Shown here in pieces: positions 25,897-38,131 of a DNA stretch of 46,929 nt. A program made the translations under genes and the position numbers. The notes under the pieces were generated by a model. It did no database searches, was not told where the DNA came from, and saw nothing but the letters and a program-made list of their open reading frames with translations. The number at the start of each line of letters is the position of its first letter. Within the stretch, counting starts at the first letter, position 1. The DNA is from a virus (Duplodnaviria > Heunggongvirae > Uroviricota > Caudoviricetes), in the IMG/VR virus record IMGVR_UViG_2703718815_000012, positions 1-46,929 of that record; one strand, written 5' to 3'.

Positions 25897-25972
25897 TGGT
25901 GCTGATTGACGGAGTTGAACCGCCGACATCCTGCTTACAAGGCAGGCGCTCTACCTACTGAGCTAAATCAGC
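25897..25972 (-). tRNA. tRNA-Thr (anticodon UGU)
   Basis: 76-nt cloverleaf on minus strand: acceptor stem GCTGATT/AATCAGC, D-arm AGCTCAGTAGGTAGAGC, anticodon stem CCTGC/GCAGG with loop CUUGUAA, T-arm GGCGG-TTCAACT-CCGTC, encoded CCA. Confidence 0.85.
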
Positions 25973-33044: not shown

Positions 33045-33914
33045 TCAGTCCCTCGCCCAAGGTGGAATTTCAGTCTGGCCATAGTCCTTGCCAGCGAAGT
33101 TCTCAGATACGCGAGACTGATTGCGGGCTGGCTGCTTGATGCCTTTCGGCTCAAACAATCCCTGCCAGCCGTTCGCAATGCTCTGGTTGATGATTTCTTC
33201 AGGCTGATATCCGCTGCACTTGCAACGCTCAAGCAGGTTGATGGCCTGGGTAACCGTCTGCTGAGACTTGATCGGTTTCTTCAGGTCGCGACGATAATCG
33301 ACCCATGACTTCCAGACTGAAACTGACAGCCATTCAGGAAGGTCAACACCAGCCGGATCGAACGAAGCATGTTTGGGGGATTTAGGGGGTTTATTAATAT
33401 TGTCTTTATTGTCTTTTGTAATAGTGTCTTTTGTGTGTCCCCATTTTGGTGACAGGGTTGTCACTGTTTTGGTGACACTTTTTGTCACTACCGTAGGGAC
33501 ATTGTCACTACTATGGTGACAGTCACTACTATGGTGACATTTTGGCGCAGGCTTAGTGCCCGGAATTACCCATTCACTTAGGTTTTTGTTGGGCCCGATC
33601 AGCATGCCGTCGGACACCAAAACATTCATCGCAATGAGTTCGTTTTTGGCAGCGTTAACCTTCTGGCGAGGTAGTCTGGTCAGCTCAGAAAGTTGTGAGT
33701 CTGCTATGCGGTCCATCTTCTTGTTGAACCCATAGGTTTTGCGGCAAACAGCATGAGCTACCTTGGCCTGATTTTTGGTCAGGTTCGCGCCGATAAGCTC
33801 CTCATACAACTCGTTTGCCAGACGGGTGTACCCATCGTCTGTATCGGCCACGCGTTGCTCCTGTATTCCCGAAACTACAGCGGGAAAGTTGAGAATTTCT
33901 GCGGTGTTTGACAT
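33045..33914 (-). CDS. replication initiator (lambda O-like N-terminal domain) containing the origin
   Basis: N-terminal YTRLANELYEELI...QAKVAHAVCRKTYGFNKKMDRIADSQL resembles replication protein O N-domain; iterons inside coding sequence; ATG 33914 with GGGAG SD. Confidence 0.75.
   Translation of the reverse strand: MSNTAEILNFPAVVSGIQEQRVADTDDGYTRLANELYEELIGANLTKNQAKVAHAVCRKTYGFNKKMDRIADSQLSELTRLPRQKVNAAKNELIAMNVLVSDGMLIGPNKNLSEWVIPGTKPAPKCHHSSDCHHSSDNVPTVVTKSVTKTVTTLSPKWGHTKDTITKDNKDNINKPPKSPKHASFDPAGVDLPEWLSVSVWKSWVDYRRDLKKPIKSQQTVTQAINLLERCKCSGYQPEEIINQSIANGWQGLFEPKGIKQPARNQSRVSENFAGKDYGQTEIPPWARD
33441..33545. repeat. replication origin iterons inside initiator gene
   Basis: tandem 18-bp direct repeat gtcactactatggtgaca x2 (33504..33539) plus further GGTGACA/GTCAC copies, flanked at 33375..33440 by an AT-rich tract. 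Confidence 0.65.
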
Positions 33915-33999
33915 ACTTACTCCCGTTACTTGGCGTAACACAGTGTTTGGAAGGCCTTTGAAGTTACCGCTTCAAGGGCTTTTTCTTTTCTGGTGACTC

Positions 34000-34545
34000 T
34001 CACATAACCCCCAGCATCGACGTGACCATCGTCATCAGTGGGCCTACCTGCTCCGGCATGAGGCGAAACAGCGACGCTATACCCTCGCTCACCTCTTTCA
34101 GCTTCTGATGCTCTGGAGCGTCCAGCAGCACGGCCTGTTTAGCCTCGGCACACTCTTTCATCGCAGAGGCGATCAGCGACATCGTGTCGTTCTGCGGCGC
34201 CAGACGGTTTCGGTACTCCAGCGGCAGGACCGACATGATTGCCGGGGCCAGCTGGCGAATGTTGTTGGCGGCGTATTCGGTATCGCCATCAATCCATCGA
34301 AACACTTTCTGCATCTGGCGGTGCGAGTCAGTCGGGATATCCAGACCGGTTCCGCCGGACGCCCGCCACTCTTCCACGATCAGCGCGGCAACAAATTCAC
34401 GGCTTCGGCAATCAGCTGCCCAGGCGCGAACAGCTGCGCGGATCCCATCGATGTTTAACGCCGTGGAATCAGGCTCCCGGCGATTCTGGTAAATCATCGC
34501 CGTTGGCGAAAATTTGTTACCTTGTTGATACGCAAGTGAATGCAT
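34000..34545 (-). CDS. YdaT-like protein (CII-position regulator)
   Basis: 181-aa ORF directly downstream of Cro/YdaS-like gene; family assignment from recalled resemblance only. Confidence 0.4.
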   Translation of the reverse strand: MHSLAYQQGNKFSPTAMIYQNRREPDSTALNIDGIRAAVRAWAADCRSREFVAALIVEEWRASGGTGLDIPTDSHRQMQKVFRWIDGDTEYAANNIRQLAPAIMSVLPLEYRNRLAPQNDTMSLIASAMKECAEAKQAVLLDAPEHQKLKEVSEGIASLFRLMPEQVGPLMTMVTSMLGVM

Positions 34546-34574
34546 TGCTTTCCCTTTCGTGGTTAGGGCCGCCG

Positions 34575-34802
34575 TTAAGCGGCATGGTTCTCTGGGTGTG
34601 GAAACAGGTCGGGAAGATCAGGTCGAATTTCGTGTGCCTTAATCTCGCCACCAGTAGCGTTTACGATGGCTGTTACTTTTTCCGGAGATACGGAACCACC
34701 GTTAAGCCACTTGTGAACCGCTGGCTGGCTAACGCCGCAAATATCTGCGAGTCGCTTCTGGCTGCCAACGATTTCTAAAGCTCGTTGAATAACTTTGTTC
34801 AT
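34575..34802 (-). CDS. Cro/YdaS-like HTH transcriptional regulator
   Basis: 75-aa HTH protein (QKRLADICGVSQPAVHKWLNG) divergent from cI across the operator region. Confidence 0.75.
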   Translation of the reverse strand: MNKVIQRALEIVGSQKRLADICGVSQPAVHKWLNGGSVSPEKVTAIVNATGGEIKAHEIRPDLPDLFPHPENHAA

Positions 34803-34838
34803 GGATTTTACCTATCCGATTACTGGATTAATGAAAAG

Positions 34839-34901
34839 ATAACCCAAGTTATGACCATTGTCCATAACCTTTGTTATTTTACTCTGCATAACCTGAGTTA
34901 T
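34839..34901. promoter_or_regulatory. OR operator region: three 14-bp operators ATAACC-N3-GTTAT
   Basis: ATAACCCAAGTTAT (34839..34852), ATAACCTTTGTTAT (34864..34877), ATAACCTGAGTTAT (34888..34901); last operator ends 11 nt before the cI ATG. Confidence 0.7.
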
Positions 34902-34912
34902 ATATTGGCGCT

Positions 34913-35617
34913 ATGAAAACATTCGCAGATCGACTCAACGCGGCTATGAGAGCCGCAGGCATATCCCAAGGGCAGCTGGCTGAGAAAGTCGGCATATCTC
35001 AACCTGCAATTCAGAAAATGACATCAGGCAAAACCACAGGCAGCCGTAAGATGGTTGAGCTTGCTCATGCATTGAACGTGCGTCCGGAATGGCTCAGTTC
35101 GGGCATAGGCTCAATGCAGGACGAAGGACGCAAGGACTCCGCTATCCCACCAGAATCGGAATGGGGTAAAGTTGACGCTTGGGATAGCAAAACAGATCTG
35201 CCAGATGACGAGGTCGAAGTGCCATATCTGAAAGATATAGAACTTGCGTGTGGTGATGGTTCCTGCTTGGAAGATGACTATAACGGATTCAAACTTCGTT
35301 TTGCGAAGTCTACCCTTCGTAAGGTGGGAGCCCAGAAAGATAGCGTGCTGTGCTTCCCGGCATCAGGAAATAGCATGGAGCCCATGATCCCGGAAGGGAC
35401 GACGGTCGCCATCAACACGAACGACAAAAAGATCGTTGATGGCAAGGTTTATGCAATAAGCCAGGACGGATGGAAAAGGCTAAAATCCATTTATCGTGTG
35501 AGTCCTACCCGCATCGTGATTCGCAGCTTCAACAGTGAAGAGTACCCAGATGAAGAAGCGGATATCGAGAGCGTAGAGATTATTGGTCGCATGTTCTGGA
35601 CATCTACTATCTGGTAA
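34913..35617 (+). CDS. cI: CI-type repressor (HTH plus LexA-like S24 peptidase domain)
   Basis: N-terminal HTH (ISQGQLAEKVGISQPAIQKM), C-terminal S24 autocleavage domain with Ser in GNSMEP and Lys in WKRLK. Confidence 0.85.
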   Translation: MKTFADRLNAAMRAAGISQGQLAEKVGISQPAIQKMTSGKTTGSRKMVELAHALNVRPEWLSSGIGSMQDEGRKDSAIPPESEWGKVDAWDSKTDLPDDEVEVPYLKDIELACGDGSCLEDDYNGFKLRFAKSTLRKVGAQKDSVLCFPASGNSMEPMIPEGTTVAINTNDKKIVDGKVYAISQDGWKRLKSIYRVSPTRIVIRSFNSEEYPDEEADIESVEIIGRMFWTSTIW

Positions 35618-35631
35618 TCAAGAGGGAAGGG

Positions 35632-36321
35632 ATGAAATTAGAACTAATAGCATTATCTTTACTGGCTTTAACTACGAACGCAATCGGCTCTAGCACCCTG
35701 AGCTGCGATTACGCTAAGTCGGACATCAGTAATGGAGCTAATGCTCCAATGATTCCTGGCGGAAAAGGCACTGTCGAATTTGATGGAAAATCCTTTAAAG
35801 CCACACGTCCAAATGGTGGTGTGATCATTTCACCAATAATCAGTGAACAAAAAAATGGAATGCTTTTTCTTGACGACAAGACAAAAGTGTTCGCGGCAAG
35901 CCTTTCTAAAACTGATTTCGCTATCTCTGACCGAATTGCTCGAATTACTGAGCAATGGGCCAACTGCATTGATGTTAGTCCATCGCCGAACAATTCAGAT
36001 AACGACAAACCGGCAACTGCCTGGAAATATAGGTCTCTCACGAAGCAGGAGATAAATGCTGTTGAGGCAGCAGTGAAAGACCAATTGAAGGATCCAGAAA
36101 GTGCCAGATTCAAGCACTCTAAGTTTGTGAGCAACGGGAAAGGCGCTTACTGCGGCCTGGTTAATTCCAAAAACTCATATGGCGGCTATGCTGGAAACAC
36201 TCCTTTCATGGTCATGCTTATCAACAATGGCAAACCTCACGCTGGCTTTATTGGTATGGGCGGAGATGATGCCGAGACCCTGTCAACGCTATCCGTCTGC
36301 AAAGACAGTGGTTATTTCTAA
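35632..36321 (+). CDS. secreted protein of unknown function (immunity-region moron)
   Basis: 229-aa ORF with N-terminal signal peptide MKLELIALSLLALTTNAIG; AT-rich; co-oriented with and immediately downstream of cI. Confidence 0.55.
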   Translation: MKLELIALSLLALTTNAIGSSTLSCDYAKSDISNGANAPMIPGGKGTVEFDGKSFKATRPNGGVIISPIISEQKNGMLFLDDKTKVFAASLSKTDFAISDRIARITEQWANCIDVSPSPNNSDNDKPATAWKYRSLTKQEINAVEAAVKDQLKDPESARFKHSKFVSNGKGAYCGLVNSKNSYGGYAGNTPFMVMLINNGKPHAGFIGMGGDDAETLSTLSVCKDSGYF

Positions 36322-36337
36322 ACCCCACCTTGATTGA

Positions 36338-36364
36338 AAGCCCCGCATTGCGGGGTTTTTTATT
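36338..36364 (+). terminator. intrinsic terminator ending the cI operon
   Basis: ccccgc-att-gcgggg followed by TTTTTTATT. Confidence 0.7.
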
Positions 36365-36426
36365 GCCAGAAATCCCCCCCCGCCACATTTTTTACAAAAA
36401 TAAATTCATTTAGCTATCAGTGCATT

Positions 36427-36489
36427 ATAACTTATGTGATGATAATTATAAATTAGGTTATTGCCATCACTCATAACTAAGGTTATCTT
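36427..36489 (+). promoter_or_regulatory. OL-like operators and PL-like promoter
   Basis: three 14-mers related to the OR sites (ATAACTTATGTGAT 36427..36440, ATAAATTAGGTTAT 36448..36461, ATAACTAAGGTTAT 36473..36486) overlapping -35 TTGCCA (36461..36466) and -10 TATCTT (36484..36489), 17-nt spacer. Confidence 0.55.
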
Positions 36490-36684
36490 TAATCCATCGA
36501 AACGAAACATCGACAGCTGAGCGAAGTTAGCCAGCGGCGAAGTGGAGATTCGGTCAGTCGAACGGCGCGACAGTAAACCATGCGTCGGACCATAGGCGGG
36601 CTCAGGAAGAGCGGCAATTATGGCTAAACGATTTACCAGCAGCTCTTTGCGAGGGGCTGACGGTAAACAATCAGAGGGGTGTAT

Positions 36685-37026
36685 ATGTCAGATAAAAAAA
36701 TGGCGCCACTACTGCTCAATGTAGACGCCAGCGAAGTGCTTACCCAGACCGGGGAGCTTTTAAAGTTACTTGAACTTCCAGCCAGCTCCTTTCAGGGAAT
36801 TCCTGAGCATGTCGTCGATCTGTTTTTTGACCGTGTCCGTGGCCTGATTGACAACATCGTCCTTAGTGATTTCGCGACCACAGTCAGCACAACTGACGCC
36901 GGTGAAATTTGTCTCAAAGTCAAAATCATCGGGCTGGTTGAACATCTCACTTCCGCAGTCAGGGCACACGGTCCGCATGGTTTGCATGAACATATCCTTT
37001 CTACTGTTGGGGAGCTTAAAGAGTAA
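36685..37026 (+). CDS. hypothetical protein, first ORF of early-left operon (uncertain; overlaps antisense ORF)
   Basis: 113-aa ORF from ATG 36685 with GAGGGG SD; N-position gene by synteny but acidic rather than Arg-rich. Confidence 0.3.
   Translation: MSDKKMAPLLLNVDASEVLTQTGELLKLLELPASSFQGIPEHVVDLFFDRVRGLIDNIVLSDFATTVSTTDAGEICLKVKIIGLVEHLTSAVRAHGPHGLHEHILSTVGELKE
36766..36987 (-). CDS. hypothetical zinc-ribbon protein (73 aa; uncertain, antisense to 36685..37026)
   Basis: CPDCG and CADCG pairs, AAAGGA SD 7 nt before ATG 36987; hand-counted third-position GC higher than in the overlapping plus frame. Confidence 0.35.
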   Translation of the reverse strand: MQTMRTVCPDCGSEMFNQPDDFDFETNFTGVSCADCGREITKDDVVNQATDTVKKQIDDMLRNSLKGAGWKFK

Positions 37027-37215
37027 GCGATTTCTTGCTGTTGGGGAATAGCGGGAAAGCGCGCGCCGGGCGCGGATAAATACCCCGGCAATAACTGGAA
37101 TGTTTTGTAGTGCAGTGAATTGCAGCTGCATCGACGGCAACCGGAAGATAAGCACCCGGCGCTGCACCACAAAGCATTTCTCCCGCATCAGCGGGTAACG
37201 ACAGAGGGTAAGAGC

Positions 37216-37398
37216 ATGCGTAAACCTAAAGCTACAAGCGAAACAGTGGTTCATTTCACCATGATGCGCCGACCTGATTGTGCAAAGCATGGTGATCAGC
37301 GCGGCAGAGTGTGGCGACATAAGTATCAATTCCTTGATAGCGCATTTTGCAGGGCTGCAAGCCAAATATCTCCCCGCTCATTTAATTTCAATCAATAG
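37216..37398 (+). CDS. small basic protein (60 aa)
   Basis: GAGGG SD, Arg/Lys-rich N-terminus MRKPKATSETVVHFTMMRRPDCAKHGDQRGRVWRHK, terminator immediately after stop. Confidence 0.45.
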   Translation: MRKPKATSETVVHFTMMRRPDCAKHGDQRGRVWRHKYQFLDSAFCRAASQISPRSFNFNQ

Positions 37399-37421
37399 CC
37401 GCCTAACCAGCGGCTTTTTTC
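37397..37421 (+). terminator. intrinsic terminator (tL1-like)
   Basis: agccgc-ctaacca-gcggct followed by TTTTTT. Confidence 0.7.
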
Positions 37422-37555
37422 ATACCTCAGTCGCTTCACCGAGGCGGCTTAGTTATGACAACCGGCGGCCATCCACCGCCCATTGAAACACTGAATAAAT
37501 GCGTTGAAGTCTTGTATTAACCGTTCCGTTCGCCGCGATAAGGCCAAGAGGATTT

Positions 37556-37765
37556 ATGAGTGATTTGGAGTTGGGCTTAAAGATATACGCATTATGGTTT
37601 GTCGGGACGTTTCTGCTCGGCATAGCAATCAACTCGCTGACGAAAAAAGAACATCGCCAGCCACTTTCAAAACTAGCCATTGACCATGTACGCATGTCTT
37701 CCGCAATAACCATTGTGGGCCTGATTGTGTGCGGTATGGGCTGGTTCTTATTCAAGGTGGTGTGA
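37556..37765 (+). CDS. small membrane protein (two predicted TM helices)
   Basis: 69-aa ORF with hydrophobic segments IYALWFVGTFLLGIAI and AITIVGLIVCGMGWFLF. Confidence 0.45.
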   Translation: MSDLELGLKIYALWFVGTFLLGIAINSLTKKEHRQPLSKLAIDHVRMSSAITIVGLIVCGMGWFLFKVV

Positions 37766-37766
37766 G

Positions 37767-37925
37767 ATGACAGTCACCCACAACGGCAAGCAGTACACCG
37801 CCAAAAAGCTCAACGATAACGAGTGGCAGCTGACGTCGGTATCTAACCCGCGTGAAAAGCTGACGATGAACCGCTGGCATATGAAGCTGGCTGGCCTCCT
37901 GGAACAGGTTGAGGTGAAGGCATGA
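37767..37925 (+). CDS. hypothetical protein (52 aa)
   Basis: ATG 37767 directly after upstream stop; coupled to next gene. Confidence 0.3.
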   Translation: MTVTHNGKQYTAKKLNDNEWQLTSVSNPREKLTMNRWHMKLAGLLEQVEVKA

Positions 37926-38131
37926 TCAACCACTACGGCACCACCCCGCTCATTCGCCAGTGCGTCACGCCCGGCATGATGGCATTGCATGAAGGCCGCA
38001 CATATCGCGTCTCAGCAGTCATTCAGGAGCGCAAATGGGTATACCTGCACACTGACGCAGAAATAATCCGACTCAGTGACTGCGTGATTGACGTCCTTCT
38101 TGACGGTCACGGCAACCCTATCCAGCACTAA
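37922..38131 (+). CDS. hypothetical protein (69 aa)
   Basis: ATGA overlap with upstream ORF. Confidence 0.4.
   Translation: MINHYGTTPLIRQCVTPGMMALHEGRTYRVSAVIQERKWVYLHTDAEIIRLSDCVIDVLLDGHGNPIQH

What the first reader, a model, noticed from the sequence alone, without database searches (positions are those of the whole stretch)
36374..37421. PL region: OL operators, an antisense ORF pair, and a small Arg-rich protein followed by a terminator
Downstream of OL/PL, the first plus-strand ORF (36685..37026) is almost fully overlapped by a minus-strand zinc-ribbon ORF (36766..36987) that has its own SD and higher third-position GC by hand count. Only one of the two may be real. Next comes a 60-aa Arg/Lys-rich protein with good SD, immediately followed by an intrinsic terminator. 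That geometry (promoter-proximal basic protein then terminator) recalls N-tL1, but the protein is unlike lambda N. A boxA-like GCTCTTTG (36642..36649) lies in the leader with no convincing boxB. A C8 homopolymer tract (36374..36381) sits between the cI terminator and OL.
Basis: partly seen in the sequence, partly recalled or inferred. Interest (0 to 1): 0.5.

Follow-up and report, generated by a model that had tools for sequence, protein, structure and literature searches.

The report
Prophage PL region with put RNA
This is the early-left control region of an E. coli lambda-like prophage. It does not use an N protein: it carries the already described "put" RNA, which makes RNA polymerase ignore terminators. 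Downstream lie two small genes on opposite strands of the same DNA, both apparently real, and a small basic gene in a highly swappable cargo slot.

Summary
The main element was missed. The "leader with no convincing boxB" holds a 75-nt put (polymerase-utilisation) antiterminator RNA at 36554-36628. It is identical to the stretch annotated "putL-like antiterminator RNA" in phage HK639 and homologous to HK022 putL. Its two-stem fold has strong covariation support across 29 distinct put sequences.

The 60-aa basic protein (ORF-C, 37216-37398) sits exactly where phi80 "N" sits, with the same 5'UTR and the same tL1 terminator. It is a real gene (58% identical homologues in P22-like phages, pS 0.75 against pN 0.25). 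It is not an N substitute, because in phage L it lies next to a true nutL and gene 24. That slot carries at least 30 different-looking cargo genes in related phages.

For the antisense pair, "only one is real" is not supported. The minus-strand zinc ribbon (NCBIfam ECs_2282 family) is the frame under purifying selection in the overlap. The plus-strand ORF has a coding signature in its non-overlapped N-terminus, a conserved start and Shine-Dalgarno, and stays open in all 69 distinct homologous loci.

The boxA-like octamer and the C8 tract show no sign of function.

The put system is already known. The doubly selected antisense pair and the cargo slot are modest new observations.

The parts
36336..36363 (+). 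Intrinsic terminator ending the cI / lipoprotein-like gene transcript (hairpin CCCCGC-att-GCGGGG plus T6)
   Evidence: Folds at -16.1 kcal/mol, z -3.25. It follows ORF 35632-36321.
36374..36381 (.). C8 homopolymer tract in the spacer at a mosaic junction; no function supported
   Evidence: Read directly in the sequence. Homology to HK639 starts only at 36391. The one relative with the same left flank has CCACCTACCCCACC instead.
36427..36486 (.). OL3 (36427-36440), OL2 (36448-36461) and OL1 (36473-36486): ATAAC-N4-GTTAT repressor operators
   Evidence: The repeat family is shared with three OR sites at 34839-34852, 34864-34877 and 34888-34901.
36461..36489 (+). PL promoter: -35 TTGCCA, 17-nt spacer, -10 TATCTT; predicted start near 36496
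   Evidence: Consensus scan. The homologous position is annotated 'putative pL' in HK639 and pL in phi80. The start site is inferred.
36489..36539 (+). 5' leader segment shared by put-type and boxA/nut-type relatives (phi80, KO-TP1, BHUENT6, HK639, CobraSix)
   Evidence: Pairwise blastn gives 96-100% identity in all five.
36554..36628 (+). put (polymerase-utilisation) antiterminator RNA, putL type. Helix 36556-36560/36568-36572; stem I 36563-36567/36583-36587; stem II 36589-36595/36618-36625 and 36600-36603/36609-36612
   Evidence: Lies within the stretch corresponding to the HK639 'putL-like antiterminator RNA' feature, with no differences between the two in this 75-nt span. Visibly homologous to HK022 putL. 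The diagnostic pattern occurs once in the window and never in shuffles. Covariance model score 92 bits, E 4e-21, though the window sequence was in the training alignment. Family structure: 95.9% of cells paired against 26-51% in slid controls, with 11 compensatory pairs.
36576..36581 (+). -10-like AACCAT inside put (HK022 putL positions 23-28), proposed sigma70-dependent pause that helps putL fold
   Evidence: The alignment columns match the HK022 numbering. The role is taken from PMC9378689. It is inferred here.
36636..36668 (+). Predicted hairpin upstream of ORF-A; its 5' arm contains the boxA-like GCTCTTTG (36642-36649)
   Evidence: MFE fold. The segment 36632-36684 travels with the ORF-A/B module, being present in BHUENT6 without put and absent in CobraSix with put.
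36685..37026 (+). ORF-A, 113 aa (= HK639_45), first protein gene of the PL operon; function unknown
   Evidence: Shine-Dalgarno and start codon are conserved even where the upstream DNA is unrelated. Parsimony changes in the non-overlapped 26 codons are 80/58/128 at positions 1/2/3. The frame is open in all 69 distinct loci. AF2 pLDDT is 84.8.
36766..36987 (-). ORF-B, 73-aa zinc-ribbon protein, ECs_2282 family, antisense inside ORF-A; function unknown
   Evidence: NF047912 scores 83.3 bits against a cut-off of 37. dN/dS is 0.23 against 0.89 for the plus frame in the overlap. Changes number 251 at its third positions against 90 and 49. C33, C36, G37 and R38 are invariant and C11 is nearly invariant; C8 is replaced by R in one sequence (P0011) and is absent from one N-terminally truncated sequence (P0013).
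37027..37094 (.). Spacer that belongs to the ORF-A/B module. It holds a degenerate duplicate of the ORF-A C-terminal coding segment and GC-rich hairpins, and presumably the ORF-B promoter region
   Evidence: Present in nearly every locus that has ORF-A/B. Conserved upstream of ORF-B in distant homologues. No consensus sigma70 promoter was found.
37095..37215 (+). Structured 5'UTR of the 'N slot': long-range stem 37097-37107/37170-37180 around a variable loop, hairpin 37182-37195, SD GAGGG 37204-37208
   Evidence: The fold of 37020-37220 has z -2.9. The arms and the Shine-Dalgarno are conserved in phi80, HK639, CobraSix, BHUENT6, KO-TP1 and phage L.
37216..37398 (+). ORF-C, 60-aa basic protein (phrog_17199), cargo gene in the N slot; function unknown
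   Evidence: phrog_17199, E 8e-25. Full-length 58%-identical ORF in P22-like phages and a shorter, partial-length homologue in Erwinia phage Eho59. Differences fall 19/13/32 by codon position, with pS 0.75 and pN 0.25. Invariant core RRP..GD.RG.VW.H.
37397..37421 (+). tL1-type intrinsic terminator (AGCCGC-ctaacca-GCGGCT plus T6), the first terminator that put-modified polymerase must read through
   Evidence: Terminator scan. Folds at -9.6 kcal/mol, z -4.1. The same sequence is annotated tL1A in phi80.

Best explanation
The region is the early-left (PL) control region of an E. coli lambdoid prophage of the HK639/phi80 mosaic group.

**Repression.** In the lysogen, repressor bound to three ATAAC-N4-GTTAT operators shuts PL.

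**Antitermination.** On induction, polymerase starting near 36496 transcribes a ~60-nt generic leader and then the 75-nt put RNA (36554-36628). As in HK022, the nascent put RNA folds into two stem-loops and binds the beta' zinc-binding domain of the polymerase that made it. It stays bound, so the elongation complex resists pausing and termination without any phage protein. The complex can then read through tL1 (37397-37421) and later terminators into kil, gam and recT. No N protein or nut site is involved.

**Two cargo modules lie between put and tL1.**
1. ORF-A (113 aa) is co-oriented with the operon. Inside it, on the other strand and codon-aligned, lies ORF-B, a 73-aa zinc-ribbon protein of the ECs_2282 family. 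Both appear to be real genes of unknown function.
2. A conserved structured 5'UTR with a fixed Shine-Dalgarno and start position (the 'N slot') carries a different gene in almost every relative. Here it carries ORF-C, a 60-aa basic protein from a small conserved family.

**Shown here:** sequence identity and homology, covariation, selection patterns, mosaic boundaries.

**Inferred from HK022/HK639 work:** the put mechanism, the transcription start, the expression of the three ORFs.
For: **put RNA**
- Megablast to HK639 is 93% over 36391-37211. That record annotates a 'putL-like antiterminator RNA' corresponding to 36563-36688, with only two differences.
- Side-by-side homology with HK022 putL is visible.
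- A put-specific pattern hits the window once and hits 0 of 100 shuffles. It hits more than 119 viral contigs, with paired divergent putL/putR in HK022-like ones.
- In an alignment of 29 distinct put sequences, 95.9% of cells are paired against 26-51% when partners are slid. Eleven pairs show compensatory changes. The covariation score is 0.456 against at most 0.11.
- The covariance model finds exactly one copy in the window (92 bits).
- The -10-like AACCAT and G43-G47 (the stretch altered in the inactive put- mutant, PMC9378689) are conserved.

**No N/nut**
- No boxB-like hairpin exists.
- No Rfam match was found.
- No N-family hit for any early ORF in Pfam, PHROGs or NCBIfam.

**ORF-B**
- NF047912 scores 83 bits; dN/dS is 0.23; position-specific changes are 251/49/90.

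**ORF-A**
- Changes are 80/58/128 in its non-overlapped part, and the Met sits at the same position in all lineages but the Yersinia one. Two in-frame indels (+1 and -2 codons) lie in the non-overlapped part.
- The Shine-Dalgarno is kept in unrelated upstream contexts.
- The frame is open in all 69 distinct loci, down to 63% ORF-B identity.
- None of 31 distinct Leu/Ser codon states in ORF-B is TTA, CTA or TCA (rough P about 0.003).
- It is always co-oriented with kil and the other PL genes.

**ORF-C**

**Cargo slot**
Against: - No functional test of antitermination, of polymerase binding or of expression was possible.
- The HK639 paper (King et al. 2011) could not be read, so its experimental claims are taken only from the GenBank feature label and from memory.
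- Here put begins about 60 nt after the predicted start, whereas in HK022 putL it begins at +3. The proposed sigma-dependent pause may therefore not apply.
- No putR-like element exists on the PR side, so right-operon antitermination is unexplained.
- No convincing promoter for ORF-B was found.
- In the overlap, dN/dS of ORF-A is 0.89. Its central part could be an unselected by-product of ORF-B.
- Only 2 of 5 AF2 models of ORF-A were confident.
Confidence: 0.8

Rival explanations
1. N/nut-type antitermination. ORF-C would be a divergent N-like Arg-rich RNA-binding antiterminator acting at a nut site in the leader (the boxA-like GCTCTTTG plus an unrecognised boxB), with tL1 as its first target.
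For: ORF-C is basic, promoter-proximal and directly followed by a terminator. Its 5'UTR and terminator are the ones that flank phi80 'N'-tL1A. A boxA-like octamer is present at 36642-36649.
Against: - No boxB-like hairpin exists.
- A complete put RNA is present.
- The ORF-C homologue in phage L lies between a canonical nutL (boxA CGCTCTTTAAC, boxB GCGCTGACAAAGCGC) and gene 24 (N). In Eho59 it lies between two other annotated N-like genes. It therefore coexists with N rather than replacing it.
- Contigs 99.4-99.7% identical upstream carry phi80 'N' instead of ORF-C, and at least 30 other proteins occupy the slot.
- The invariant core RRP..GD.RG.VW.H contains Pro and Gly and is not an N-type helical Arg-rich motif.
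- The boxA-like octamer travels with the ORF-A module.
Confidence: 0.04
2. Only the minus-strand zinc-ribbon gene (ORF-B) is real. ORF-A would be a 'shadow' ORF that stays open because codon-aligned antisense frames acquire stops only from TTA, CTA or TCA codons.
For: - In the overlap the plus frame has dN/dS 0.89 and the variation sits on ORF-B third positions.
- The chance that a single sequence lacks antisense stops is 0.16-0.59.
- PGAP annotates only the minus strand.
- ORF-A matches no Pfam or NCBIfam family and only weakly matches one PHROG of unknown function (phrog_29546, E 6.7e-4); it has no structural neighbour.
Against: - The 26 codons of ORF-A that lie outside ORF-B show third-position excess (80/58/128) and dN/dS 0.36, against 1.14 for the antisense control.
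- There are in-frame indels only, and a conserved Met and Shine-Dalgarno even in unrelated upstream contexts.
- The frame is open in all 69 distinct loci, including Kluyvera, Yersinia and Escherichia sp..
- Stop-generating codons are absent from 31 Leu/Ser codon states (rough P about 0.003).
- ORF-A is always co-oriented with the PL operon.
- AF2 gives pLDDT 84.8.
Confidence: 0.25
3. Only the plus-strand ORF-A is real and the zinc-ribbon ORF-B is a chance antisense ORF.
For: ORF-A lies in the operon's orientation with a strong Shine-Dalgarno. HK639's annotators called only this strand. No promoter for ORF-B was found.
Against: - Within the overlap, changes concentrate on ORF-B third positions (251 against 90 and 49) and its dN/dS is 0.23.
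- C33, C36, G37 and R38 of the CxxC motifs are invariant and the first pair is nearly so.
- A curated NCBIfam family is matched above its cut-off.
- ORF-B has its own Shine-Dalgarno and a higher GC3.
Confidence: 0.03

Closest known systems
Phage HK639 'putL-like antiterminator RNA' (GenBank HM208537; King et al. 2011, J Bacteriol 193:5784, cited in PMC9378689 ref. 31)
   Same: The same DNA: 93% identity over 36391-37211, with no differences in the 75-nt put core. The same PL, leader and ORF-A/B module, and the same absence of a putR-type copy on the PR side.
   Different: - The gene in the N slot differs: HK639_44 is a 149-aa hydrophobic protein, whereas the window has the 60-aa ORF-C.
- The immunity-adjacent genes upstream of OL differ.
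- HK639's feature is drawn 126 nt long, reaching into the ORF-A start. Comparison with CobraSix and HK022 puts the 3' end of the conserved element near 36626.
Phage HK022 putL / putRNA (King 1996; Banik-Maiti 1997; cryo-EM structure in PMC9378689)
   Same: Homologous sequence and the same helices, with compensatory changes. Conserved GAACGGC, AACCAT, GUCGG, GGCGGG and CGGCAAU blocks. Located after PL and before the first terminator. No N protein.
   Different: - About 70-75% identity by eye; the stem II lower helix is entirely re-coded (CCAUA/UAUGG against GAGCGC/GCUGCUC).
- Here put begins about 60 nt after the start instead of at +3.
- HK022 has a second copy (putR), and Nun sits in the promoter-proximal slot.
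Lambda N-nutL-tL1 and phi80 'N'-tL1A
   Same: The same genome position and geometry. The 5'UTR (37170-37215) and the terminator are literally shared with phi80.
   Different: No boxB, and no N-like protein. In closely related contigs the phi80 'N' cassette itself sits downstream of put, so the slot is not tied to the antitermination mechanism.
NCBIfam NF047912, ECs_2282 family putative zinc-binding protein
   Same: ORF-B matches over 57 of 60 profile positions at 83 bits.
   Different: The family has no known function. Database entries are often over-extended at the N-terminus (109-184 aa) through non-conserved antisense DNA. The overlapping plus-strand gene is not part of the family description.
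Unannotated 60-aa ORF between nutL and gene 24 in P22-like phages L, ST64T and ST160; MZUP2_490 of Erwinia phage Eho59; phrog_17199
   Same: The P22-like ORFs are the same length as ORF-C, share its N-terminus MRKPK and end in SFNFNQ; all homologues, including the shorter Eho59 protein, share the invariant RRP..GD.RG.VW.H core and are promoter-proximal in PL operons.
   Different: Those phages also encode N and nut. Here the partner is put RNA. No function is known for any member.

Membership tests
put (polymerase-utilisation) antiterminator RNA, HK022/HK639 type | Sequence homology to HK022 putL/putR and the HK639 putL-like element | tested here: met
   No differences from the HK639 feature across the 75-nt core. 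Conserved blocks are shared with HK022 putL. The pattern is unique in the window (0 of 100 shuffles). The covariance model scores 92 bits.
put (polymerase-utilisation) antiterminator RNA, HK022/HK639 type | Two stem-loops (plus the 5' duplex seen by cryo-EM) supported by compensatory changes | tested here: met
   Of 20 pairs, 95.9% of cells are paired against 26-51% when slid, and 11 pairs have double changes. The window sequence forms all helices, with the bulge shifted by one position in lower stem II.
put (polymerase-utilisation) antiterminator RNA, HK022/HK639 type | Lies in the transcript just downstream of an early promoter and upstream of the first terminator | tested here: met
   The PL -10 ends at 36489, put is at 36554-36628, and the first intrinsic terminator is at 37397-37421. 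The start site is predicted, not mapped.
put (polymerase-utilisation) antiterminator RNA, HK022/HK639 type | Residues known to be needed in HK022 putL (the -10-like AACCAT with U28; G43-G47) | tested here: met
   Columns 23-28 read AACCAT (36576-36581) and columns 43-47 read GCGGG (36596-36600).
put (polymerase-utilisation) antiterminator RNA, HK022/HK639 type | Acts in cis without phage protein; blocked by beta' zinc-binding-domain mutations of the host polymerase | not testable with these tools
   Needs reporter fusions and rpoC mutant hosts.
put (polymerase-utilisation) antiterminator RNA, HK022/HK639 type | A second copy (putR) after PR, as in HK022 (not required: HK639-type phages have one) | tested here: not met
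   The covariance model with filters off finds no second copy in the window or on the HK639 PR side. The next best hit scores 13.7 bits.
N/nut protein-dependent antitermination (lambda, P22, phi21) | nut site: boxA followed by a boxB hairpin with a GNRA-like pentaloop in the leader | tested here: not met
   Only a boxA-like octamer is present. No 5-bp stem with a GNANA loop occurs in 36490-37216; lambda and P22 boxB pass the same test.
N/nut protein-dependent antitermination (lambda, P22, phi21) | Promoter-proximal N protein with an N-terminal helical Arg-rich motif | tested here: not met
   ORF-C has no N-family hit in Pfam, PHROGs or NCBIfam. Its conserved core contains Pro and Gly. Its homologue coexists with gene 24 in phage L.
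NCBIfam NF047912 ECs_2282_CxxC (ORF-B) | Score above the curated cut-off, with the two CxxC pairs | tested here: met
   83.3 bits against a cut-off of 37. C33, C36, G37 and R38 are invariant and C11 nearly invariant.
Lar-type restriction alleviation zinc ribbon (TIGR03655), considered for ORF-B | Score above the curated cut-off | tested here: not met
   17 bits against a cut-off of 39.6.
Antisense overlapping protein-coding gene pair | Purifying selection detectable on both frames | tested here: inconclusive
   ORF-B is clearly selected within the overlap. ORF-A is clearly selected only outside it. Inside the overlap the evidence is indirect: persistent openness and stop-codon avoidance, rough P about 0.003.
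Antisense overlapping protein-coding gene pair | Both products expressed | not testable with these tools
   Needs strand-specific RNA-seq, ribosome profiling or tagging.

The most novel reading that the evidence does not exclude
ORF-A and ORF-B are a conserved antisense pair of real protein genes written codon-on-codon on the same DNA at the head of the PL operon. They would form a lysis/lysogeny-coupled switch. The zinc-ribbon ORF-B would be made in the lysogen while PL is repressed. It would be silenced by head-on, put-modified, terminator-resistant transcription once PL fires, at which point ORF-A is made instead. Next to it, the 'N slot' would be a dedicated promoter-proximal exchange site for early accessory (for example anti-defence or exclusion) genes. 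Both ORF-C and the protein called phi80 'N' would be mere cargo there, which would mean phi80 'N' is not the phage's antiterminator.
Probability: 0.25. Interest if true: 0.6.

Novelty: new member of a known kind. Interest (0 to 1): 0.4.

Why it matters
RNA-only processive antitermination (put) is rare and well studied mechanistically, but it has no match in Rfam. Automated annotation therefore misses it, and readers may look for a missing N/nut, as happened here. This window is another HK639-type example, in E. coli prophages.

The comparative data add three things.
- put, boxA-type leaders, the ORF-A/B module and the promoter-proximal gene are independent, freely recombining cassettes.
- The promoter-proximal 'N slot' holds dozens of unrelated small genes behind one conserved structured leader. 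This makes it a place to mine early accessory genes.
- One cassette contains two overlapping genes on opposite strands that both carry signs of selection. Current pipelines annotate one or the other, and sometimes over-extend it.

None of this overturns current understanding. It refines the annotation and offers testable cases.

Tried and rejected
- **Rfam.** Searches at gathering thresholds over the whole window and at E-value thresholds over 33700-37600 returned only a tRNA and sub-threshold noise. There was no put family match.
- **King et al. 2011 (PMC3187212).** The paper is not held, so HK639 experimental details could not be checked.
- **Second put copy.** None was found in the window, phi80, KO-TP1, BHUENT6 or the HK639 PR region. 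An impression that phi80's leader holds a cryptic put (GAACGGCG.. GAACGGGCAA) was therefore dropped.
- **Genome-contig scan with the ORF-A alignment.** It found nothing. The ORF-B alignment found only 4 loci.
- **Function of ORF-B.** The AF2 model had low confidence (pLDDT 63). PDB profile hits were generic zinc fingers. Lar was below cut-off. PADLOC PDC-M14A at E 7e-6 is only a weak lead.
- **Function of ORF-C.** No PDB relative was found. There are only 4 representative clusters among 1.84 billion proteins. One of them, a 720-aa LCCL-domain protein, is judged a spurious repeat match. P0001 could not be located on a contig.
- **Promoter for ORF-B.** No consensus sigma70 match was found. A conserved TTTAAT-like hexamer exists in relatives, but it reads TTTAAG in the window.
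- **C8 tract as a phase-variable element.** No length variants were seen, and the tract is not a homopolymer in the one relative with the same flank.
- **boxA-like octamer as a nut element.** Rejected because it belongs to the ORF-A module and no boxB exists.
Full report
**Layout.** The plus strand of this part of the window corresponds to lambda's leftward direction.
- A Cro/YdaS-like gene lies at 34575-34802 (-).
- A cI-type repressor (HTH plus Peptidase_S24) lies at 34913-35617 (+).
- A 229-aa lipoprotein-like gene lies at 35632-36321 (+).
- A strong intrinsic terminator lies at 36336-36363.
- The finding's region follows, and after it come kil (37922-38131), a 323-aa protein and recT.

Nine complete E. 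coli genomes carry at least 80% of 36300-37500 at about 100% identity, so this is an E. coli prophage.

**Checking the observation.**
- Three ATAAC-N4-GTTAT palindromes lie at 36427-36440, 36448-36461 and 36473-36486. They match three in OR at 34839-34901.
- They overlap a promoter with TTGCCA, a 17-nt spacer and TATCTT at 36461-36489.
- The plus ORF is at 36685-37026 and the minus zinc-ribbon ORF at 36766-36987. They are codon-aligned antisense.
- GC3 is 0.63 for the minus frame and 0.49 for the plus frame, and both have a Shine-Dalgarno.
- The 60-aa basic ORF is at 37216-37398. Its stop codon lies in the stem of an intrinsic terminator at 37397-37421.
- GCTCTTTG is at 36642-36649 and C8 is at 36374-36381.
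- A direct scan for boxB-type hairpins finds none in 36490-37216. The lambda and P22 boxB sequences pass the same scan.

**What the leader is.** Megablast against phage genomes gave phage HK639 as the best hit, at 93% over 36391-37211. That record annotates a "putL-like antiterminator RNA" corresponding to window 36563-36688, with two differences, both 3' of the core.

I fetched HK022 and read the DNA between PL and nun. Its putL (GACGAACGGCGCGTCTTTAAACCATGCGTCGGGAGCGCGGCGGGTTCAGGATGAACGGCAATGCTGC) is plainly homologous to window 36557-36623.

A pattern built from the shared blocks (GAACGGC N8-20 GTCGG N6 GGCGNGNTCA) occurs once in the window and in none of 100 shuffles. It occurs in more than 119 viral contigs. 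HK022-like contigs carry two divergent copies (putL and putR), and HK639-like contigs carry one.

I aligned 29 distinct put sequences. The alignment columns coincide with the HK022 putL numbering used in the cryo-EM paper (PMC9378689). Three elements were tested together:
- the 5' duplex (columns 3-7 with 15-19);
- stem I (columns 10-14 with 30-34);
- the two parts of stem II.

Together, 95.9% of cells are paired, against 26-51% when the 3' partners are slid. Eleven pairs have changes on both sides. The covariation score is 0.456 against at most 0.11.

The lower helix of stem II is completely re-coded between types: CCAUA/UAUGG here, ACGCC/GGUGCGU in the CobraSix type, GAGCGC/GCUGCUC in HK022. 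The -10-like AACCAT (36576-36581) and the G43-G47 block are intact.

A covariance model scores the window element at 92 bits and finds no second copy. It finds none on the HK639 PR side or in phi80, KO-TP1 or BHUENT6 either. Rfam has no match.

The mechanism is taken from the HK022 literature as summarised in PMC9378689 and PMC8632103. Nascent put RNA binds the beta' zinc-binding domain and remains with the elongation complex. It suppresses pausing and both intrinsic and Rho-dependent termination, and it needs no phage protein. That step is inferred here, not shown.

**Mosaic structure.** Pairwise comparisons with five annotated phages and about 80 viral contigs resolve the region into cassettes.

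| Segment | Window coordinates | Distribution |
|---|---|---|
| Generic 5' leader | 36489-36539 | Shared by all relatives |
| Antitermination element | put at 36554-36628 | put in HK639, CobraSix and about 25 contigs; a boxA-type segment in phi80, KO-TP1 and BHUENT6 |
| Optional ORF-A/B module | 36632-37094 | Present with put (HK639) or without it (BHUENT6); absent from CobraSix, phi80 and KO-TP1 |
| Structured 5'UTR of the "N slot" | 37095-37215 | Shared by all; includes the long-range stem 37097-37107/37170-37180, the hairpin 37182-37195 and the SD GAGGG; the fold of 37020-37220 has z -2.9 |
| Slot gene | 37216-37398 | Different in almost every relative |
| tL1 terminator | 37397-37421 | Shared |

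The boxA-like octamer belongs to the ORF-A module. It forms the 5' arm of a predicted hairpin.

**The antisense pair.** Database searches return both frames. The minus frame is the NCBIfam "ECs_2282 family putative zinc-binding protein" (NF047912, 83 bits against a cut-off of 37). The plus frame is a 113-aa hypothetical protein, HK639_45.

I collected loci with the ORF-A alignment. To avoid bias, I also collected them with the ORF-B alignment.

Evidence inside the 73-74-codon overlap:
- Across 53 distinct sequences, variable columns number 53 at ORF-A position 1 (which is ORF-B position 3), 15 at position 2, and 28 at ORF-A position 3.
- dN/dS is 0.23 for ORF-B and 0.89 for ORF-A.
- On a tree of 68 distinct sequences, parsimony changes are 251/49/90.

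So ORF-B is the selected frame there.

Evidence in the 26 ORF-A codons that lie beyond ORF-B's stop:
- The pattern reverses, to 80/58/128.
- dN/dS is 0.36, against 1.14 for the antisense control.

Further evidence for ORF-A:
- In all lineages but the Yersinia one, ORF-A starts with Met at the same place.
- The two indels in its non-overlapped part are in frame.
- A purine-rich Shine-Dalgarno precedes the start even where the upstream DNA is unrelated.
- In all 69 distinct loci found through ORF-B, the plus frame is open across the whole of ORF-B or, in the Kluyvera loci, all but its first codon. These include Escherichia sp., Kluyvera and Yersinia loci at 63-68% ORF-B identity.
- Stops in ORF-A can arise only from TTA, CTA or TCA codons in ORF-B. 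None of the 31 distinct Leu/Ser codon states uses them. The window's own codon usage would predict about 14-20% per state, giving a rough P of about 0.003. This figure is not corrected for phylogeny.
- Wherever neighbours are recognisable, ORF-A is co-oriented with kil and the other PL genes.
- AF2 gives ORF-A a confident beta-alpha-alpha-beta-beta-alpha model (pLDDT 84.8, but in only two of five models). It has no structural neighbour.
- ORF-B models as a zinc ribbon plus a helix, at low confidence.

My reading is as follows. ORF-B is certainly a gene. ORF-A is probably one (about 0.7), and its middle and C-terminal sequence are largely dictated by ORF-B. I found no promoter for ORF-B. PGAP calls the minus ORF at 184 aa in E. 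coli 23CRST004, running antisense through the spacer and ORF-C. Only the last 73 aa are conserved.

**ORF-C.**
- The word-indexed search found one cluster.
- PHROGs has a 60-position family (phrog_17199, E 8e-25).
- The exhaustive search found only four representative clusters. One of them, an LCCL-repeat protein, I regard as spurious.
- tblastn against phage genomes found a full-length, 58%-identical, mostly unannotated ORF in the P22-like phages L, ST64T, ST160 and PM43. It also found a shorter relative in Erwinia phage Eho59.
- In phage L the ORF lies after a canonical nutL (CGCTCTTTAAC ... GCGCTGACAAAGCGC) and the same kind of structured leader, and immediately before gene 24 (N). In Eho59 it lies between a lambda-N-like and a phi80-'N'-like gene.
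- Window against phage L gives 64% nucleotide identity, differences of 19/13/32 by codon position, pS 0.75 and pN 0.25.
- The invariant core is RRP..GD.RG.VW.H.

ORF-C is therefore a genuine small gene. It is repeatedly found at the head of PL operons, and it accompanies N rather than replacing it.

Among about 100 slot instances with the conserved 5'UTR (some contigs fetched more than once), the slot holds 44 distinct proteins in at least 30 different-looking groups (grouped only by their first eight residues). Three contigs are 99.4-99.7% identical to the window over the 722 nt upstream. They carry a protein 100% identical to phi80 'N' in place of ORF-C.

**Verdict.**
- The central element is a known kind of system (put RNA antitermination) in an HK639-like E. 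coli prophage.
- The either/or view of the antisense pair is not supported.
- The boxA-like octamer and the C8 tract have no support as functional elements.
- The new observations are modest: an antisense gene pair with selection on both strands, and a hypervariable promoter-proximal cargo slot that also hosts phi80 'N'.
- No experiment was possible. The put mechanism, the transcription start and the expression of all three ORFs are inferences.

Noticed in passing
window 37095-37421; loci L002, L005, L006, L007, L009-L012, L292: The promoter-proximal 'N slot' is a hypervariable cargo site. One conserved structured 5'UTR with a fixed Shine-Dalgarno and start position precedes 44 distinct proteins in at least 30 different-looking groups across about 100 slot instances. 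The cassette boundaries sit at or within a few bases of the start codon and, in several phages, at the stop codon.
   Followed up: partly
L009, L010, L012 (2032-2328) against window 37216-37398; L002 1918-2214: A protein 100% identical to phi80 'N' sits downstream of put in contigs 99.4-99.7% identical to the window upstream. Six of the 7 loci with this protein have put. KO-TP1 has a phi80-type nutL but no such protein. phi80 'N' has no NCBIfam or PADLOC hit and no N-terminal Arg-rich motif by eye. Its role as the phi80 antiterminator may deserve re-examination.
   Followed up: partly
window 33925-33984 (-): The 60-nt element that the HK639 record labels 'M3-like RNA' is conserved here, just downstream of the cII-like gene (34000-34545). 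It may relate to right-operon control, since no putR exists.
   Followed up: no
L291 2773-3327 (E. coli 23CRST004), equivalent to window 36766-37320 (-): PGAP annotates the ECs_2282 gene as 184 aa. This extends it antisense through the spacer and over ORF-C. Only the C-terminal 73 aa are conserved, and neither ORF-A nor ORF-C is annotated in RefSeq E. coli genomes.
   Followed up: yes
window 36995-37013 and 37033-37051: The direct repeat TTTCT(A/T)(C/G)TGTTGGGGA(G/A) occurs twice. The first copy encodes the ORF-A C-terminus (ILSTVGE). The second lies just after the stop (FLAVGE) and is read through in one homologue (L164). Both are conserved upstream of ORF-B in distant relatives, so they could be a regulator site or a duplication remnant.
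   Followed up: partly
window 35632-36321 (+): A 229-aa signal-peptide/lipoprotein-like gene sits between cI and the terminator, in the position of lambda rexAB. It has PHROG hits of unknown function only and is probably a lysogen-expressed moron.
   Followed up: no
window 36629-36640 and many loci: The short motif CGATTTACCAG recurs at the junction between put and several unrelated downstream modules. This suggests a preferred recombination linker.
   Followed up: no
window 25900-25972 (-): A tRNA gene (75 bits) lies inside the window, possibly marking the prophage attachment site or a phage-borne tRNA.
   Followed up: no
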